64,000 nt of DNA from contig NC_043004.1 of the NCBI RefSeq assembly GCF_006345805.1, positions 89,528,001-89,592,000 of the forward strand, read 5' to 3'. Position 1 is the stretch's first letter; every line of letters begins with the position of its first letter. Made by a program: the position numbers. Origin of the DNA: Octopus sinensis (lineage: Eukaryota). Below are positions 8,620-60,900 of this stretch, in pieces.

Positions 8620-11600
8620 TAGTGTTCGCATTATTCCGCCAAAACTAATGCTTTTTCATCCACTTCGTTTTGAACTAATCATGCATCATCTTGTAGCGAT
8701 GAGATTTTGATGAGGTAGCTGTTAATTTTAAAAACAATATTGTAGGGTAGGTGTGAGAGACCAGATCTGGCCAGTTTGACCATAAAACAGGCAGAATACT
8801 TATGGCCGGTTTAAATGCTAAAGGGATATATATATAGATATATGTATGTATATTGTCATATTTTACATCATACGTTTGACGTCAGTTTAGTTTCGTATCA
8901 ACCAACTACAAGAACATCTCCTTTGTTGATACTAAACTGGTTTAAAGAATACTTTATACCCTGTCAGACAGAAGACCGTGATCAGAGGCTTTCCAGCCAT
9001 GCCCATCTTGTCAGTTTTAGACGATGTATTTAGAAATCAATATACAGTATTTTGTTTTCAGACTGTATGTAAAGTGCGTTTGATGGAAATTTGACTGCTG
9101 TTTCTAAAAGGCTAAAACAAAGGTTCTGTTCGTTGGTTGTCAGTGTTAGAGTTTGTTTTTAATCAAGAGTTCTTTTATTGGCATTCTTTCGATATAACTC
9201 GACCAAATCAAAACACTTCAATTCGGGTATTTCCGTGAAAGCAAATGACAGTTCGATTCTGTTTTCTGCTTGGAAATTTTCAGATTTTACCTACACACAT
9301 GAAACAGGTAAGAACAAATGGTTAATATAGGGCGTAACAAATATCAGAAAATCAAAAAAAAAGTGTGTAATAGGTTGTAAAACAACTTCCTATGAACGAA
9401 TATGAAAAAAAAAATTCGCGCACGCGAAAGGGGGGTGGGGGAGAGGCCTCGGAAAATTCACGGGAAGTTCCGAAAGCGTCTGAGGGCTGACCCGGGCACC
9501 AAAACAAAAAAAAATAGTGTAATATGTGTGTAAAACAACTTGCTCTAAACGATATGAAAAAAAAAATGCGCTCTCGAGAAAGAGGGGTGGGGGAGAGGCC
9601 TCGGAATATTTATATCGGGAATTTCCGAAAGCGTCTGAACCGGGCACAAAACAAAAACAAAAAACAGCGTAATAGGTGTAAAACAACTTGCTCTAAACGA
9701 CTATCATGAAAAAAATGCGCGCTCGCGAAAGGGGGGGGGGGAGAGGCTTCGGAAATTTCACATCTTCAGTCCACGGCCTTTAAACTAAGAAAAAATAGTG
9801 TAATTGGTGTAAAACTATTGTTCTAAACGAGTATCAAGAACCACACTCACACATGAATAATAAACTCCGTATTCGCAAAAAAAAAATAAATAAAGAGAAG
9901 AAATTCTGGAAAAAGTGAAGAAATGTTGGATCTCCGCCATGTGAATCAAAATACGTGTCAGAAACATCTTGAAATACTACAGAAATTATGTTACGAAAAT
10001 GATAATGTTACATACCTCTTTGAGGGTCCATCGATAATGATGATAAAGAAATGAGTTGGATTTGAACTCAGAATATTGACTAACACAACTACATACTACA
10101 AGACTCAAAATATTCAGCCAAGTCACCACCCTTTAACTAGCAATAATAATAACATCAATAACATAACAGCCAAAAGATTTATTTGTTCTGAAAATAACAA
10201 TCATAGTAAATAAATATGTTCTTTAATATCACATTCATGTGCACAGTTAAACACACTTACATACAAACAGTCACGCATGCATAATACAGAACGGAACACA
10301 TAAATGAAGGATGCATTACTTAGTATATATTACATCTAGAGATTTTGATTAATAAGTCAAATATGCAAATTATAAAGATAATTAATTGCTTTACTAAACA
10401 GTGTTGTAAAGGTGAAAAAATAAATTTGGGAAAAAAAATACACGCCAAAACTAATTATAAAGGATAATTAGGGAAGGATTGACACAAAATAATAATTTTT
10501 TCTGTCTCTTTTTTTCTGATAAATGCATCTTAATAAGTGAGAAGAATTGCATATATCTGAACTATTTCAAAGAAAAGCATAAATTTAATGTTTAAAATAG
10601 CTTTAACCAAGGAATGAGATCCAACATTTCTTCACTTTTCCAGAATTTCTTCTTTTATTATTTTTTTTTTGCGAAATACGGAGTTTATGATTCATGTGTG
10701 AGTGTGTGTTCTTGATACTCGTTTAGAACAAGTAGTTTTACACCAATTACACTATTTTTTCTTAGTTTAAAGGCCGTGGACTGAAGATGTGAAATTTCCG
10801 AAGCCTCTCCCCAACCCCCCTTTCGCGAGCGCGCATTTTTTTCATGATAGTCGTTTAGAGCAAGTTGTTTTACACCTATTACGCTGTTTTTGTTTTTGTT
10901 TTTGTGCCCGGTTCAGATGCTTTCGGAAATTCCCGATATAAATATTCCGAGGCCTCCCCACCCCTCTTTCTCGAGAGCGCATTTTTTTTTGTCATATTGT
11001 TTAGAGCAAGTTGTTTTACACATATTACACTATTTTTTTTTGTTTTGGTGCCCGGGTCAGCTCCTCAGACGCTTTCGGAACTTCCCGATGTGAATTTTCC
11101 GAGGCCTCTCCCCCACCCCCCTTTCGCGTGCGCGAATTTTTTTTTTCATATTCGTTCATAGGAAGTTGTTTTACACCTATTACACACATTTTTTTTTTGA
11201 TTTTCTGATATTTGTTACGCCCTATATTAACCGAACAAATATGCAAGGCTTTTTTTCTTCAAGTTTAAAATGAGACATTTCTGGCATAATTTCGTTATAG
11301 CTATACTCCACAACGCAGGTGTTTGTACCTCCTTGTCTTGACATCACGTGATTGTTGTAAATAAATGTCATTTATTTCCAATATTCTGTGAAAGCATGTC
11401 TAGCCTTGGGGGAAATCTTACCTTGCTTGGAAACCGGTAAGGATTGGTAACAAAAGGGGCATATGAATATAGAAAATCTGCTTCAGTAAGCTGTCTGATT
11501 CATGCAAGCATGGTAAAGTGGGTGTTAAAACAGTGATGATGATATATAGATAGATAATGGAGCCTGGTGCAGCCCCTGGCCTTACCGGCTCAGCTCCAGT

Positions 11601-57900: not shown

Positions 57901-60900
57901 GTTGTCACTCATCTGTCTCGCTTTATGACTACGAAGATGACTCCTGAGTCCAGCTTTACTGAGGCTGGGTCTTGCACTGACATTGCATGTCAGCATCAAA
58001 GGAAGACCCTTCCCATCTGGAAGTGTAACAGCAATGCCCTTCCTGACATCTCTCCTTACTTTCTCATGTGCAACTTGAGATTTCTCAAAAGTGGCTGTCC
58101 CCTCGTGCTCAATCCTTCTCTGCCTGCCACGATCAATAGCTATGCCTTCCCATGTGTCAGGAGAGATGCAAGCATCTCTTAAGGAAGCCTTCAGCAAGTC
58201 CTTATACCTCTTTTTTGGTTTATGTGGAGGTCATTCTCCTTTAGCTAACTCTCCATAAAAGAGTTGTTTTGGCATCCTTGAATCCTTCATCCTGACCAGA
58301 TGACCACTCCATCTGAGCCTTTGCTTTAACACAAGAGCTTCTATACTTTCACAGTGAGAGCCTTCCATTATTTCAAGATCACTGATGCGGTCCTTCCACT
58401 TAATGCCATAGATCCGTCTGAGGCACATCTGATGGAAACATTCCAGTTGTTTAAGGTGGTATCGATATGTGACCCACGTCTTGCAGGTATAGAGAAGAGA
58501 AGGGAGCACACATGCCTTGTACACCTTTATCTTTATCTTTGTCTTTCTGCATATATTTCGCCGACTCCAGAGGTGCTTTTTTAGCCTTCCGAAAGCAACA
58601 CTTGCTTTCCTAATTCTATATGGAATTTCATCATCCAAATTGCTATATCTATTAATAGTGTTTCCCAGGTAGACAAATTGATCAACTACATCAAGTCGTT
58701 TACCATACACATAGATATTTGGTACACTATACTGCTTACCAGGGGCAGGTTGATGCATGACAACAGTTTTCTTGAGATTGACTGTCAATCCTAAGGCAGT
58801 GCAAGCATCAGAGAATGCATTCAAAATGTGTTGCATATCAATCTCTGTGTGTGCTACTAGCTCACAATCATCTGCATTTATGTACATACTTACATGCATA
58901 CGTATATACATATCTATATGTAGGCACAGGACGTCACAAAATATAAACAACAAAAAATACAAAGTATGACATGGAATAAGGACTTTTTTTTTTGCAAGCA
59001 ACGAAAGAAACCAATGGAAAACAAGACAAGCAACACAAGGAACGACCCTCCATCAGTTGTCGGCTGTTTTTCTAATCCATATTTCGAGCAATTCACGACA
59101 AAGTAAATCTCTGGGATCTTTTCGGTTTGAACGGGAGTTTTTTAAAATAATTTCCACGTAACTAAACACTTTTAAACTTCGTATACTGGTAAAATGTGTT
59201 TATAAAACATCTTTTTCTCTTGGCTTTATTGAGAAAATTCTATAGTTTGTAAGATATTTGTTGTTTTTCTTCTTCAATTTCTGCAATTTCAACCAATCAA
59301 TGACGTCTATTGGAGGTGAAAACATTCTGTGCCGTATGAATATGTCCCTCGTTTAAGAAACAGATTGGGTTTAATTTACATTTCTGAAGAAAAAAAGATA
59401 CCCTTCCCCCCATCCCTAATCCTAACCCTAAAACAGATTGAAAGGCAATAGATCGATACTAGGGGCATAATTATGGGTGACAATTTCATATGACACCGCT
59501 AGAAAAAAGTGCCCTTCAAACCGAAAAGATCCCATCTCCATAATATATATATATATATATATTACGGAGATGTACTTGCATAGCAAGTGACCTGATCTGA
59601 TATCGTGTGCTGAAACAAAAGAAGTTGCAGCGTAGAAGGTGTATATAAGCCATTTAAAACCGTTAGAATCACTTCAACTTTTAAATTTAGTTTGCCAAAA
59701 TATTTTCGTCGCTCAGAGACCGCGACCTGTTCACTGACAAAATTCCGACATGCATATGAGTGTGTGTGCGTGTGTGTGTATCCATATCCAGAATTCCCTT
59801 CATATAATCTGTAAACATCCGGTTCCGGTAACCAAAGATCGATTCCTGTTTCTGGCTGCTGAATTGTCTATTCTTCTCTTGTGTTCAATTCTTATAAGAT
59901 TAACCCTCCACACCTGAATACCCCTCTTAAGAAAGGTACGAAGAATACAGCACTTTGTTTATGTCTCCAATTATATAGTCTGATATAATATATTTCACCT
60001 TCCTTTTGTCTCTACACATCTTCTCTCACAAACATTCGTACACAGATACACATGTATATATACTCTGCACATATATATTTCCTGGGTTTTTCATAGAAAT
60101 ACGTAAACGCCCCAATATACACTGTCAGACTTGACAGACTTCGACAAGAGTCTTCCTCTGCGATGTTGTCCGATTTTAATTGTTTACGTTTTACTGTTTA
60201 CTCTGTTTACGTTCAATATATTACAGTGAAATAATTTGTAATTCCCAGACAGCACATGTTATTGCGATATGAAAATACCGATTCCAGTGTGAGCACTTTT
60301 CAGTTAAACATGTTTTAATTAGAAGAGAATAATGTATCTTGAAATAGTGATAATAGTGTCGCTGAGAGGACTTTATTAGTCGGTGCTAATGCGAAGTCAA
60401 TATAAAGACCTTCACCCGAGAACAAAAAAACAAAAACCCAGCCTGGGGTGGGTGTGTTAATAAGTGTATGGAAAACGAATATGAAAAAAAAAAGCGCGCT
60501 GATGACCCTGGAGATGAGGGGTGGGGAGGGGACTTTCGGAAAATTCACAAGATCCGATTTTTTCCTCATAACTTCAGGTAAAATTGATATATATTGATTT
60601 ACCGATTTCTTTTTATGGAACCCCACGTTTTTGGTTATGGAGGATCTGATTCGGGGAAAATTTTTTTTTCAAAAATCGCATTTTCAAAATTTCAGTACCT
60701 CCCTTCACTTTTCACTTTTTCCGGAATTGGCGATGTGTTTGCCGGTATTTCTATTGTTTACGTTTTATGATAATTAAAATTCATTGGTGATCGGCATATG
60801 GATTGTCAAATAGCTTTATATGGATATTAGGTTAAATGGTAAACATGCTGAAGATTAGATGAATATTTCAGTCATTCATTCAATAATTTCGAGATAAATA

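What the first reader, a model, noticed from the sequence alone, without database searches (positions are those of the whole stretch)
9320..60720. Related foldback/MITE elements recur at the 5' regions of four ZNF paralogs
Insertions lie next to the copy 2 donor (9320), about 390 bp before module B of copy 3 (20287), inside module B of copy 4 (29369) and at the CCGCC of module B of copy 6 (about 60444, weaker). The sites differ, so the events are independent. I saw no clear GG-ended long-arm elements elsewhere in the window. This suggests targeting of open promoters or recurrent regulatory remodelling of ZNF genes by one TE group.
Basis: partly seen in the sequence, partly recalled or inferred. 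Interest (0 to 1): 0.7.

Follow-up and report, generated by a model that had tools for sequence, protein, structure and literature searches.

The report
Foldback transposons beside zinc-finger gene starts
Three non-coding hairpin-shaped jumping-gene copies from two unrelated families sit just upstream of tandemly duplicated zinc-finger genes, which is ordinary transposon behaviour, and too few copies are visible here to show that they target these genes.

Summary
Three of the four reported insertions are real foldback DNA transposons at the stated coordinates.

- **E1 (9320-11232):** 615-bp arms, 96% identical, built of ~150-bp tandem subrepeats. 8-bp target-site duplication (TSD).
- **E2 (20287-20676):** ~95-bp arms and an 8-bp TSD.
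- **E3 (29369-30112):** ~210-bp arms and no TSD. About 65-70 bp of the conserved upstream "module B" is missing at this site.
- **Fourth item (about 60444):** a 77-bp relic of one E1-type subrepeat, not a foldback.

The elements are not one sequence family. E2 and E3 are related, and the relic matches E1 weakly. E1 shows no similarity to E2 or E3 beyond GG termini and 8-bp TSDs. That signature fits Merlin or Mutator-type foldbacks, but no transposase is present to decide between them.

The insertions are independent and later than the gene duplication, because the sites and TSDs differ and paralogs keep empty sites.

Within the window, 3 of 4 items lie within 400 bp of module B, against 2 of 43 other repeat intervals. 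This is suggestive, but it is post hoc and tiny. Transcription starts are unverified and genome-wide copies could not be mapped. Preference of DNA transposons for 5' ends is already known.

Verdict: ordinary, new members of a known kind. Promoter targeting is untested.

The parts
9320..11232 (.). E1, a family-alpha foldback element of 1913 bp. Left arm 9320-9934, non-coding loop 9935-10615, right arm 10616-11232. Each arm holds about three 146-152-bp tandem subrepeats. The 8-bp TSD GAACAAAT lies at 9312-9319 and 11233-11240.
   Evidence: Arms are 95.9% identical. TRF finds periods of 152 and 146. The TSD and GG/CC termini are read. It is a hit in the strict TIR plus TSD scan. The longest stop-to-stop frame overlapping the loop is 57 aa. 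MFE z is -55.
20287..20676 (.). E2, a family-beta foldback element of 390 bp. It is asymmetric: the left arm sequence runs to about 20580 and the right arm is about 95 bp. The 8-bp TSD TTTAAATC lies at 20279-20286 and 20677-20684.
   Evidence: Searches give arms 95-97% identical. One search gives the alignment with E3. One search lists it as a strict-scan hit. MFE z is -22.
29369..30112 (.). E3, a family-beta foldback element of 744 bp. Arms are about 205-215 bp. The centre is a (TGTA)n-type microsatellite at 29623-29897. There is no TSD. It replaces about 65-70 bp of module B in copy 4.
   Evidence: TRF describes the centre. One search shows the module B columns missing relative to copies 3, 5 and 6. 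One search shows the flanks are not duplicated. MFE z is -35.
60473..60549 (+). It is not a foldback. It sits where copy 6 stops matching module B.
   Evidence: blastn gives 74-75% over 77-88 bp. One search gives the alignment. nhmmer E is 1.6e-7 over profile positions 49-117 of 148. There is no long inverted repeat. MFE z is -0.8. The downstream module B motif is absent in copy 6.
21049..21321 (+). Module B of copy 3, a conserved non-coding block upstream of the coding exon. It includes the motif GAGAATACCGATTC at 21061. A candidate splice donor follows at 21079; this is inferred only.
   Evidence: The motif gives 4 matches in the window against 0.09 expected. Searches give the alignments. 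One search gives the blastn extents. One search gives the sequence context.
29292..29368 (+). Left part of module B of copy 4, with the motif at 29323 and a candidate donor GT at 29341. The right part resumes at 30113-30255, after E3.
44681..44957 (+). Module B of copy 5. It carries no foldback insertion and serves as the empty-site reference.
60256..60443 (+). Module B of copy 6. Only the upstream part is present, and it ends at the alpha relic.
12649..14823 (+). Coding exon of ZNF copy 2. The conserved acceptor ...TATTTCAG| precedes exon start 12649, and the ATG is at 12964. Equivalent exon starts are 22075 (copy 3), 33911 (copy 4) and 46002 (copy 5). This implies a non-coding 5' exon upstream of each gene.
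   Evidence: One search gives the alignment of copies 2-5. One search gives the coordinates. Pfam finds a C2H2 array with zf-H2C2_2 E 4e-153. One search lists the ORFs.

Best explanation
**What is there**
- E1, E2 and E3 are non-autonomous cut-and-paste DNA transposons of the foldback type. They have long inverted arms, no coding capacity and GG...CC termini, and the two intact insertions have 8-bp TSDs.
- They belong to two sequence-unrelated families. Family alpha is E1 plus a 77-bp relic in copy 6. Family beta is E2 and E3.

**How they arrived**
- Each inserted independently, after the tandem duplication that made the C2H2 zinc-finger gene array.
- Each landed in non-coding DNA just upstream of, or just inside, the first intron region of a different paralog.
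- E3 later lost, or arrived with the loss of, about 65-70 bp of the conserved upstream module together with its TSD.

**Why they sit at 5' ends (inferred, not shown)**
- The most likely reason is the known bias of DDE cut-and-paste transposons for accessible chromatin at gene starts.
- Tolerance of insertions in non-coding 5' introns probably adds to this.
- ZNF-specific targeting or a regulatory role is not needed to explain the pattern.

**Shown versus inferred**
- Shown here: anatomy, family relations and independence of the insertions.
- Inferred: superfamily (Merlin-like or Mutator-type foldback), position relative to real transcription starts, and the insertion bias.
For: **Anatomy**
- E1. 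E2 and E3. Folding of all three.

**TSDs**
- Perfect 8-bp TSDs flank E1 and E2.
- E1 and E2 are the only 2 strict TIR plus TSD hits in 64 kb. Five shuffled windows gave 0 hits at the relaxed setting.

**Non-autonomy**
- The largest frame overlapping the E1 loop is 57 aa.
- 0 of 7 otherwise unexplained ORFs of >=150 aa in the window has a Pfam match.

**Two families**
- blastn finds no E1 match to E2 or E3.
- Smith-Waterman z is 0.2-1.4 between families, against 52 (E2-E3) and 12.6 (E1-relic) within them.
- nhmmer profiles confirm the split.

**Independence and timing**
- Positions relative to module B differ, and paralogs keep empty sites.
- E2-E3 identity is 84.9%, against 65-84% between module B copies.
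- The introns of copies 3 and 5 are essentially unalignable.

**A 5' non-coding exon exists**
- Copies 2-5 share a conserved acceptor about 180-315 bp before the ATG.

**Local enrichment**
- 3 of 4 items lie within 400 bp of module B, against 2 of 43 other repeat intervals.
- That zone is 7.6% of the non-coding, non-element bases.

**Literature**
- Merlin elements have TIRs of 24-462 bp, a conserved terminal 5'-GG-3' and 8-9-bp TSDs (PMC8101967, passages).
- Muta1 has 8-9-bp TSDs, a 145-bp TIR with subterminal tandem repeats, the terminal motif GGGTCTACCC, and is called a 'type 2 foldback' (PMC5225508 and PMC5499845, passages).
- Tetris has long TIRs with about 220-bp tandem repeats, a non-coding middle domain and 8-9-bp TSDs (PMC4079207, passages).
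- Transcription-start-associated integration of TEs is described in PMC7337890 (abstract).
- Mu insertions in open chromatin are described in PMC2774946 (search listing only).
Against: **Limits on the 5'-proximity claim**
- The sample is 3 elements plus one weak relic.
- 'Module B' and the donor sites were defined post hoc and from sequence alone. No transcript, CAGE or ATAC evidence exists here.
- E1 is not near any module B. Copy 2 has none, so its '5' position' rests on an unverified CAG|GTAAGA donor 12 bp away.

**Counter-examples within the window**
- Other repeats also abut module B, at 80 bp (30335-30629) and 150 bp (44194-44531).
- Another TSD-flanked TIR element, 4977-6191, is not near any 5' module. 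A fragment of its family at 16975-17151 is not either.
- Copy 5 has an intact module B with no foldback.
- The control set counts only repeats with at least 2 copies in the window, so single-copy TEs are invisible.

**Limits on classification**
- E3 has no TSD.
- The superfamily is unresolved. The E1 arms (615 bp) exceed the Merlin TIR range quoted in PMC8101967, and E2 and E3 lack tandem subrepeats.
Confidence: 0.7

Rival explanations
1. **Chance in TE-dense DNA.** The intergenic DNA of this cluster is saturated with repeats. Module B is simply a conserved island that any insertion will appear 'near'. The reader's pattern is then a post hoc grouping of unrelated elements.
For: - Excluding the ZNF arrays and the TA array, 50 repeated intervals cover 12.7 kb.
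- SINE-like copies lie 80 and 150 bp from module B.
- The foldbacks are two unrelated families.
- The fourth item is only a relic.
- E1 is 9.8 kb from any module B.
- The hAT-like element 4977-6191 is not 5'-proximal.
Against: - 3 of 4 items lie within 400 bp of module B, against 2 of 43 other repeat intervals (p 0.0024).
- Without the relic the count is 2 of 3 (p 0.017).
- The zone is 7.6% of eligible bases.
- E1 and E3 both lie within 30 bp downstream of a candidate first-exon donor.
- These p-values are post hoc.
Confidence: 0.3
2. **Co-opted regulatory or small-RNA elements.** The foldbacks were retained because they rewire the 5' control module of individual ZNF paralogs, or because they yield hairpin RNA from the first intron.
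For: - E3 physically removes about 65-70 bp of the conserved module B.
- Module B of copy 6 is truncated at the alpha relic.
- Very stable hairpins are predicted.
- The ORFs of copies 2, 3 and 4 remain open at 624, 702 and 562 aa.
- Context only, and only if the host is a cephalopod, which is unverified: C2H2 paralogs often fall in different expression modules (PMC12513265, passages).
Against: - There are no expression, chromatin or small-RNA data.
- The elements show no conservation beyond what young neutral insertions would show.
- Copy 5 keeps module B without any foldback.
- Disruption of a module is equally well read as neutral or mildly deleterious damage in a redundant gene family.
Confidence: 0.1
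3. **A single ancestral insertion** was copied along with the gene during tandem duplication and then shifted by rearrangement.
For: - E2 and E3 are the same family in neighbouring paralogs.
- Their 15% divergence is not far from the paralog divergence.
Against: - E2 has its own perfect TSD 373-385 bp upstream of module B. E3 lies inside module B.
- Copy 3 is uninterrupted at the E3 site, and so are copies 5 and 6.
- The E2 flanks have no counterpart next to E3.
Confidence: 0.03
4. **Assembly artefact.** The palindromic structures were created by chimeric long reads or mis-joins.
For: Long perfect palindromes are a known artefact class (recalled, from no call). The inner 184 nt of the E3 arms are 99% complementary.
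Against: - The arms are not identical: 95.9% for E1, 95-97% for E2 and 93% for E3.
- E1 and E2 have clean TSDs.
- The same family occurs at two loci with indel differences.
- E1 has a 680-bp unique loop.
Confidence: 0.02

Closest known systems
Mutator-type 'type 2' foldback elements: Tetris (Drosophila virilis), Muta1 (Aedes aegypti), Tm1 (Meloidogyne)
   Same: - Very long inverted arms that contain tandem subrepeats, with a non-coding middle domain. E1 has about 150-bp units; Tetris has about 220-bp units.
- TSDs of 8-9 bp in Tetris and Muta1.
- Muta1 ends begin with GG (GGGTCTACCC).
- Sources: passages.
   Different: - Tm1 mostly makes 9-bp TSDs.
- E2 and E3 have no tandem subrepeats.
- No sequence similarity or transposase link could be tested.
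- The E1 terminal motif is not palindromic like that of Muta1.
Merlin superfamily MITEs
   Same: - Conserved terminal 5'-GG-3', seen in 3 of 3 elements here.
- TSDs of 8-9 bp, seen in 2 of 3 elements here.
- TIRs can be long, 24-462 bp, which covers E2 and E3.
- Source: PMC8101967 passages.
   Different: - The E1 arms (615 bp) exceed the quoted range.
- The DDE_Tnp_IS1595 transposase that defines the superfamily is absent from the window, so membership cannot be tested.
hAT non-autonomous elements
   Same: An 8-bp TSD. A likely hAT-type element with that signature is present elsewhere in the window, at 4977-6191.
   Different: - hAT ends are short and begin YARNG (recalled, from no call).
- E1, E2 and E3 begin GGT or GGC and have arms of 95-615 bp.
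5'-end and open-chromatin insertion preference of cut-and-paste transposons (maize Mu, P element, mPing)
   Same: Insertions concentrated close to gene starts (PMC7337890 abstract; PMC2774946 and bioRxiv 10.64898/2026.05.18.725947, search listings only).
   Different: Those preferences were measured on thousands to millions of de novo insertions. Here there are 3-4 old insertions, filtered by selection, next to unverified transcription starts.

Membership tests
Foldback / MITE-like non-autonomous DNA transposon (structural class) | Long terminal inverted repeats that make up most of the element | tested here: met
   E1 has 2 x 615 of 1913 bp in its arms. E2 and E3 are almost wholly arm sequence. 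MFE z is -22 to -55. The copy 6 item does not meet this.
Foldback / MITE-like non-autonomous DNA transposon (structural class) | Target-site duplication flanking the element | tested here: met
   Perfect 8-bp TSDs flank E1 and E2. E3 has none, and its site carries a deletion of about 65-70 bp.
Foldback / MITE-like non-autonomous DNA transposon (structural class) | No transposase coding capacity | tested here: met
   The largest frame overlapping the E1 loop is 57 aa. E2 and E3 have no unique interior.
Foldback / MITE-like non-autonomous DNA transposon (structural class) | Multiple dispersed copies in the genome | tested here: inconclusive
   Each family has two loci in the window. The genome-wide count is not testable because no eukaryotic genome collection was open.
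Merlin superfamily | Terminal 5'-GG-3' and 8-9-bp TSD (PMC8101967) | tested here: met
   GG termini are present in 3 of 3 elements. An 8-bp TSD is present in 2 of 3.
Merlin superfamily | TIR length 24-462 bp (PMC8101967) | tested here: inconclusive
   E2 (about 95 bp) and E3 (about 210 bp) are within range. E1 (615 bp) is outside it.
Merlin superfamily | Mobilised by a DDE_Tnp_IS1595 transposase with matching ends | not testable with these tools
   There is no autonomous copy in the window, and the source genome is not available.
Mutator-type foldback (Muta1 / Tetris / Tm1) | 8-10-bp TSD | tested here: met
   E1 and E2 have 8-bp TSDs.
Mutator-type foldback (Muta1 / Tetris / Tm1) | Long TIR containing subterminal tandem repeats | tested here: inconclusive
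   Met by E1, with 146-152-bp units at 2.7 copies per arm and six full units aligned. Not met by E2 or E3.
Mutator-type foldback (Muta1 / Tetris / Tm1) | MULE transposase partner | not testable with these tools
   There is no autonomous copy in the window.
hAT | Short TIRs beginning YARNG (recalled) with an 8-bp TSD | tested here: not met
   The TSD length fits. The termini are GGTTA and GGCAA/GGCGA, and the arms are 95-615 bp.
   Similarity between alpha and beta is at shuffle level. There are no cross-hits by blastn or nhmmer.

The most novel reading that the evidence does not exclude
One transposase, of Merlin or Mutator type, recognises little more than GG ends and a hairpin-forming arm. 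It mobilises two sequence-unrelated foldback families that integrate preferentially within a few hundred bases of the first exon of tandem C2H2 zinc-finger genes. These insertions repeatedly break or replace the shared upstream control module. They would then be a main source of the regulatory divergence between young ZNF paralogs, possibly with hairpin RNAs from the first intron feeding small-RNA control of the cluster.
Probability: 0.1. Interest if true: 0.55.

Novelty: new member of a known kind. Interest (0 to 1): 0.25.

Why it matters
If a genome-wide test confirmed a first-exon preference specific to ZNF genes, these elements would offer a concrete mechanism for how freshly duplicated zinc-finger genes acquire different regulation. 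As it stands, the finding documents two uncharacterised foldback families with clean diagnostic ends and TSDs. It also shows that one conserved upstream module in a ZNF cluster has been damaged at least once by such an insertion. That is useful for repeat annotation and gene-model curation of this genome, but it is not surprising to a transposon specialist.

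Tried and rejected
**Identifying the organism**
- A search with the ZNF copy 3 single-exon ORF returned only generic C2H2 proteins from many animals.
- A search with its N-terminal 60 residues returned nothing.
- A search with the reverse-transcriptase fragment at 58231-59052 gave at best 60% identity to unnamed records.
- The organism therefore stays unidentified. My impression that the SINE-like repeats resemble octopod SINEs is recall only and comes from no call.
- Rfam at gathering thresholds gave 0 matches.

**Looking for a link between alpha and beta**
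- blastn, Smith-Waterman with shuffles and nhmmer profiles all found none.

**Looking for module B, or paralogous empty sites, around E1 and E2**
- Nothing was found in the copy 2 upstream region.
- The right flank of E2 matches SINE-like repeats instead.

**Other long inverted repeats in the window**
- Those listed at 3395/5244, 32037/32643 and 43263/44396 are pairs of oppositely oriented SINE-like copies, or lie in the 3.5-kb TA array. They were rejected as foldback elements.

**TIR plus TSD scans**
- A first scan used an 8-nt exact seed. A second used too strict a low-complexity filter. Both missed known elements and were replaced.

**Not done or not possible**
- Genome-wide mapping of copies, transcription-start enrichment, ATAC overlay and ZNF-binding prediction.
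- Supplementary files of papers were not consulted. Tetris and Tm1 TSD tables and Merlin TIR lists may hold details that bear on the superfamily call.
Only single-exon ORFs were used.

**Prior description in print**
- Searches listed no paper describing foldback elements at ZNF gene 5' regions, or foldback elements in cephalopods. Among the 10 listed papers, 'zinc finger genes' occurs 0 times. Among the 10, 'foldback' occurs 0 times.
- These searches cover only the held library.

Full report
**Setting**

The window is 64,000 bases with no N and 35% G+C. It carries six C2H2 zinc-finger arrays on the + strand (TRF 84-bp periodicity; ORFs; Pfam for copy 2).

| Copy | Array / ORF | Note |
|---|---|---|
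| c1 | 785-2152 | |
| c2 | 12949-14823 | |
| c3 | 22242-24350 | |
| c4 | 34087-35775 | |
| c5 | 46146-48376 | in two overlapping frames |
| c6 | 63452 to the window end | |

Copies 2-5 share a conserved acceptor (...TATTTCAG|GG) about 180-315 bp before a conserved ATG. Exon starts are 12649, 22075, 33911 and 46002. Each gene must therefore have at least one non-coding exon further upstream.

- Its motif GARAATACCGATTY occurs 4 times, against 0.09 expected. The sites are 21061 (c3), 29323 (c4), 44694 (c5) and 60271 (c6).
- The block extends about 270 bp in c3 and c5.
- Copy 2 has no module B.
- A candidate splice donor follows the motif in all four copies, and another lies at 9308 in copy 2. 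These donors are read from sequence only.
- I built and searched no joined exon model.

**The four items**

E1 (9320-11232)
- The two 615-bp arms are 95.9% identical.
- Each arm contains about three 146-152-bp tandem units.
- They enclose a 680-bp loop in which no frame exceeds 57 aa.
- The element is flanked by a perfect 8-bp duplication, GAACAAAT.

E2 (20287-20676)
- It has ~95-bp arms at 95-97% identity.
- It has a perfect 8-bp duplication, TTTAAATC.
- Its interior is the continuation of the left arm, so the right arm is truncated.

E3 (29369-30112)
- It has ~210-bp arms at 93% identity, with an inner 184 nt at 99%.
- The arms surround a TGTA-type microsatellite.
- It has no duplication.
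- About 65-70 bp of module B that c3, c5 and c6 retain is missing at its site.

All three begin GG and end CC. All three fold far more stably than shuffles, with z of -55, -22 and -35.

The fourth item (60444-60720)
- It does not fold (z -0.8) and has no long inverted repeat.
- Only 60473-60549 resembles one E1 subrepeat, at 74-75% identity with nhmmer E 1.6e-7.
- It lies where c6 stops matching module B. The downstream motif GACAAGAGTGATTYCCC is present in c3, c4 and c5 but not in c6.

**More than chance?**

- A window-wide scan asked for a 20-nt inverted terminus (>=17 matches), a perfect non-palindromic 8-bp duplication and a span of <=3 kb. It returned exactly 2 hits, E1 and E2.
- Five shuffled windows gave 0 hits even at a relaxed setting.
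- Profiles of each family find no other copy in the window.

**One group?**

No, not by sequence.
- E2 and E3 are one family: 70-74% by blastn including indels, 84.9% in ungapped columns, Smith-Waterman z 52.
- E1 and the c6 relic are weakly related (z 12.6).
- E1 compared with E2 or E3 is at shuffle level (z 0.2-1.4). There are no blastn or nhmmer cross-hits.
- What the families share is GG ends, 8-bp duplications and long arms.

That signature is the one quoted for Merlin: TIRs of 24-462 bp, terminal 5'-GG-3' and 8-9-bp TSDs (PMC8101967, passages). It also fits Mutator-type foldbacks.
- Muta1 has 8-9-bp TSDs, a 145-bp TIR with subterminal repeats and the end motif GGGTCTACCC (PMC5225508 and PMC5499845, passages).
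- Tetris has ~220-bp tandem repeats inside long TIRs, a non-coding middle and 8-9-bp TSDs (PMC4079207, passages).
- Tm1 makes mostly 9-bp TSDs (PMC3169594, passages).

E1 looks most like Tetris in architecture. Without a transposase the superfamily stays open. hAT is disfavoured by the termini; its YARNG motif is recalled, not from a call.

**Independent events?**

Yes.
- The sites differ relative to module B and the duplications differ.
- c3, c5 and c6 are uninterrupted across the E3 site.
- The E2 flanks have no counterpart beside E3.
- The elements are more alike (84.9%) than most of the paralogous non-coding DNA around them. Module B copies are 65-84% identical, and the c3 and c5 introns are essentially unalignable.
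- This places the insertions after the gene duplications.

**Targeting of 5' regions?**

This is the weak point.

For:
- 3 of 4 items lie within 400 bp of module B, against 2 of 43 other repeat intervals that recur in the window (Fisher one-sided p 0.0024).
- Dropping the relic gives 2 of 3 (p 0.017).
- That zone is 7.6% of eligible bases.
- E1 and E3 both lie within 30 bp downstream of a candidate donor.

Against:
- The numbers are tiny and the landmarks were chosen after seeing the elements.
- No transcription start is verified.
- E1 is 9.8 kb from any module B.
- SINE-like copies also sit 80 and 150 bp from module B.
- The control set misses single-copy TEs.
- Another TSD-flanked TIR element (4977-6191, TIR YAGTGGCAGCTCAT, TSD TTACTGAT) and a fragment of its family (16975-17151) are not near any 5' module.
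- c5 has an intact module B without a foldback.

A preference of cut-and-paste transposons for gene starts is already established in other systems (PMC7337890, abstract; PMC2774946 and a 2026 Mu preprint, search listings only). Even if it is real here, it would be a known behaviour.

**Function**

- Structurally, E3 has removed part of the shared upstream module in c4, and the c6 module ends at the relic.
- The ORFs of c2, c3 and c4 remain open.
- Nothing here speaks to expression.
- If the host is a cephalopod, which I could not verify, there is some context. C2H2 paralogs there often fall into different expression modules (PMC12513265, passages). Merlin, Mutator, hAT and MITE families are annotated in Octopus vulgaris (PMC13282606, passages). 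ZNF numbers track TE content across metazoans (PMC10547256, passages).

**Verdict**

- The elements are new members of a known kind.
- The decisive test is a genome-wide distribution relative to verified transcription starts.

Noticed in passing
window 4977-6191 (and 16975-17151): A 1215-bp element with 14-nt termini YAGTGGCAGCTCAT and a perfect 8-bp TSD, TTACTGAT. This is a likely hAT-type non-autonomous transposon. It abuts a degenerate zinc-finger relic. An 81.5%-identical fragment of it (5912-6105) recurs at 16975-17151.
   Followed up: partly
window 11769-11988 and 14848-15048 (third copy 8619-8828): Two inverted copies of a ~200-bp repeat, 68-80% identical, bracket the whole coding exon of ZNF copy 2, including its acceptor. 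A third, direct copy lies upstream of E1. Whether this reflects capture or movement of the exon was not examined.
   Followed up: no
window 3864-4975: Degenerate zinc-finger-like fragments lie between copies 1 and 2, at 65-77% identity to the arrays. They are probably a decayed seventh paralog.
   Followed up: no
window 46146-48376: The ZNF copy 5 array is split into two overlapping frames (46146-47678 and 47621-48376). This is a frameshift, so copy 5 may be a pseudogene or carry an assembly error.
   Followed up: no
window 49140-52679: A 3.5-kb degenerate (TA)n array lies between copies 5 and 6. It accounts for most of the long 'inverted repeats' and spurious ORFs in that region.
   Followed up: no
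window, 33 intervals such as 24439-24786, 30335-30629, 36904-37227, 42430-43170, 43263-43458, 44194-44531: Dense SINE-like interspersed repeats, some ending in (TA)n, occur in both orientations throughout the intergenic DNA. Oppositely oriented pairs mimic long-armed elements. A 158-bp unit is tandemly repeated 2.5 times at 98% identity at 42496-42885.
   Followed up: partly
window 57625-59052 (- strand): A LINE-type fragment. One frame matches the reverse-transcriptase family RVT_1 (E 1.4e-5, below the gathering score). The next frame carries a C2H2 or zinc-knuckle motif. The best database relatives are 60% identical unnamed records.
   Followed up: partly
window 9100-9319 versus module B copies; window 63452-63999: Copy 2 lacks module B altogether and has a different upstream sequence. 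The copy 6 N-terminus differs from the MEEEL... N-terminus shared by copies 2-5. The six genes are therefore not uniform duplicates.
   Followed up: partly
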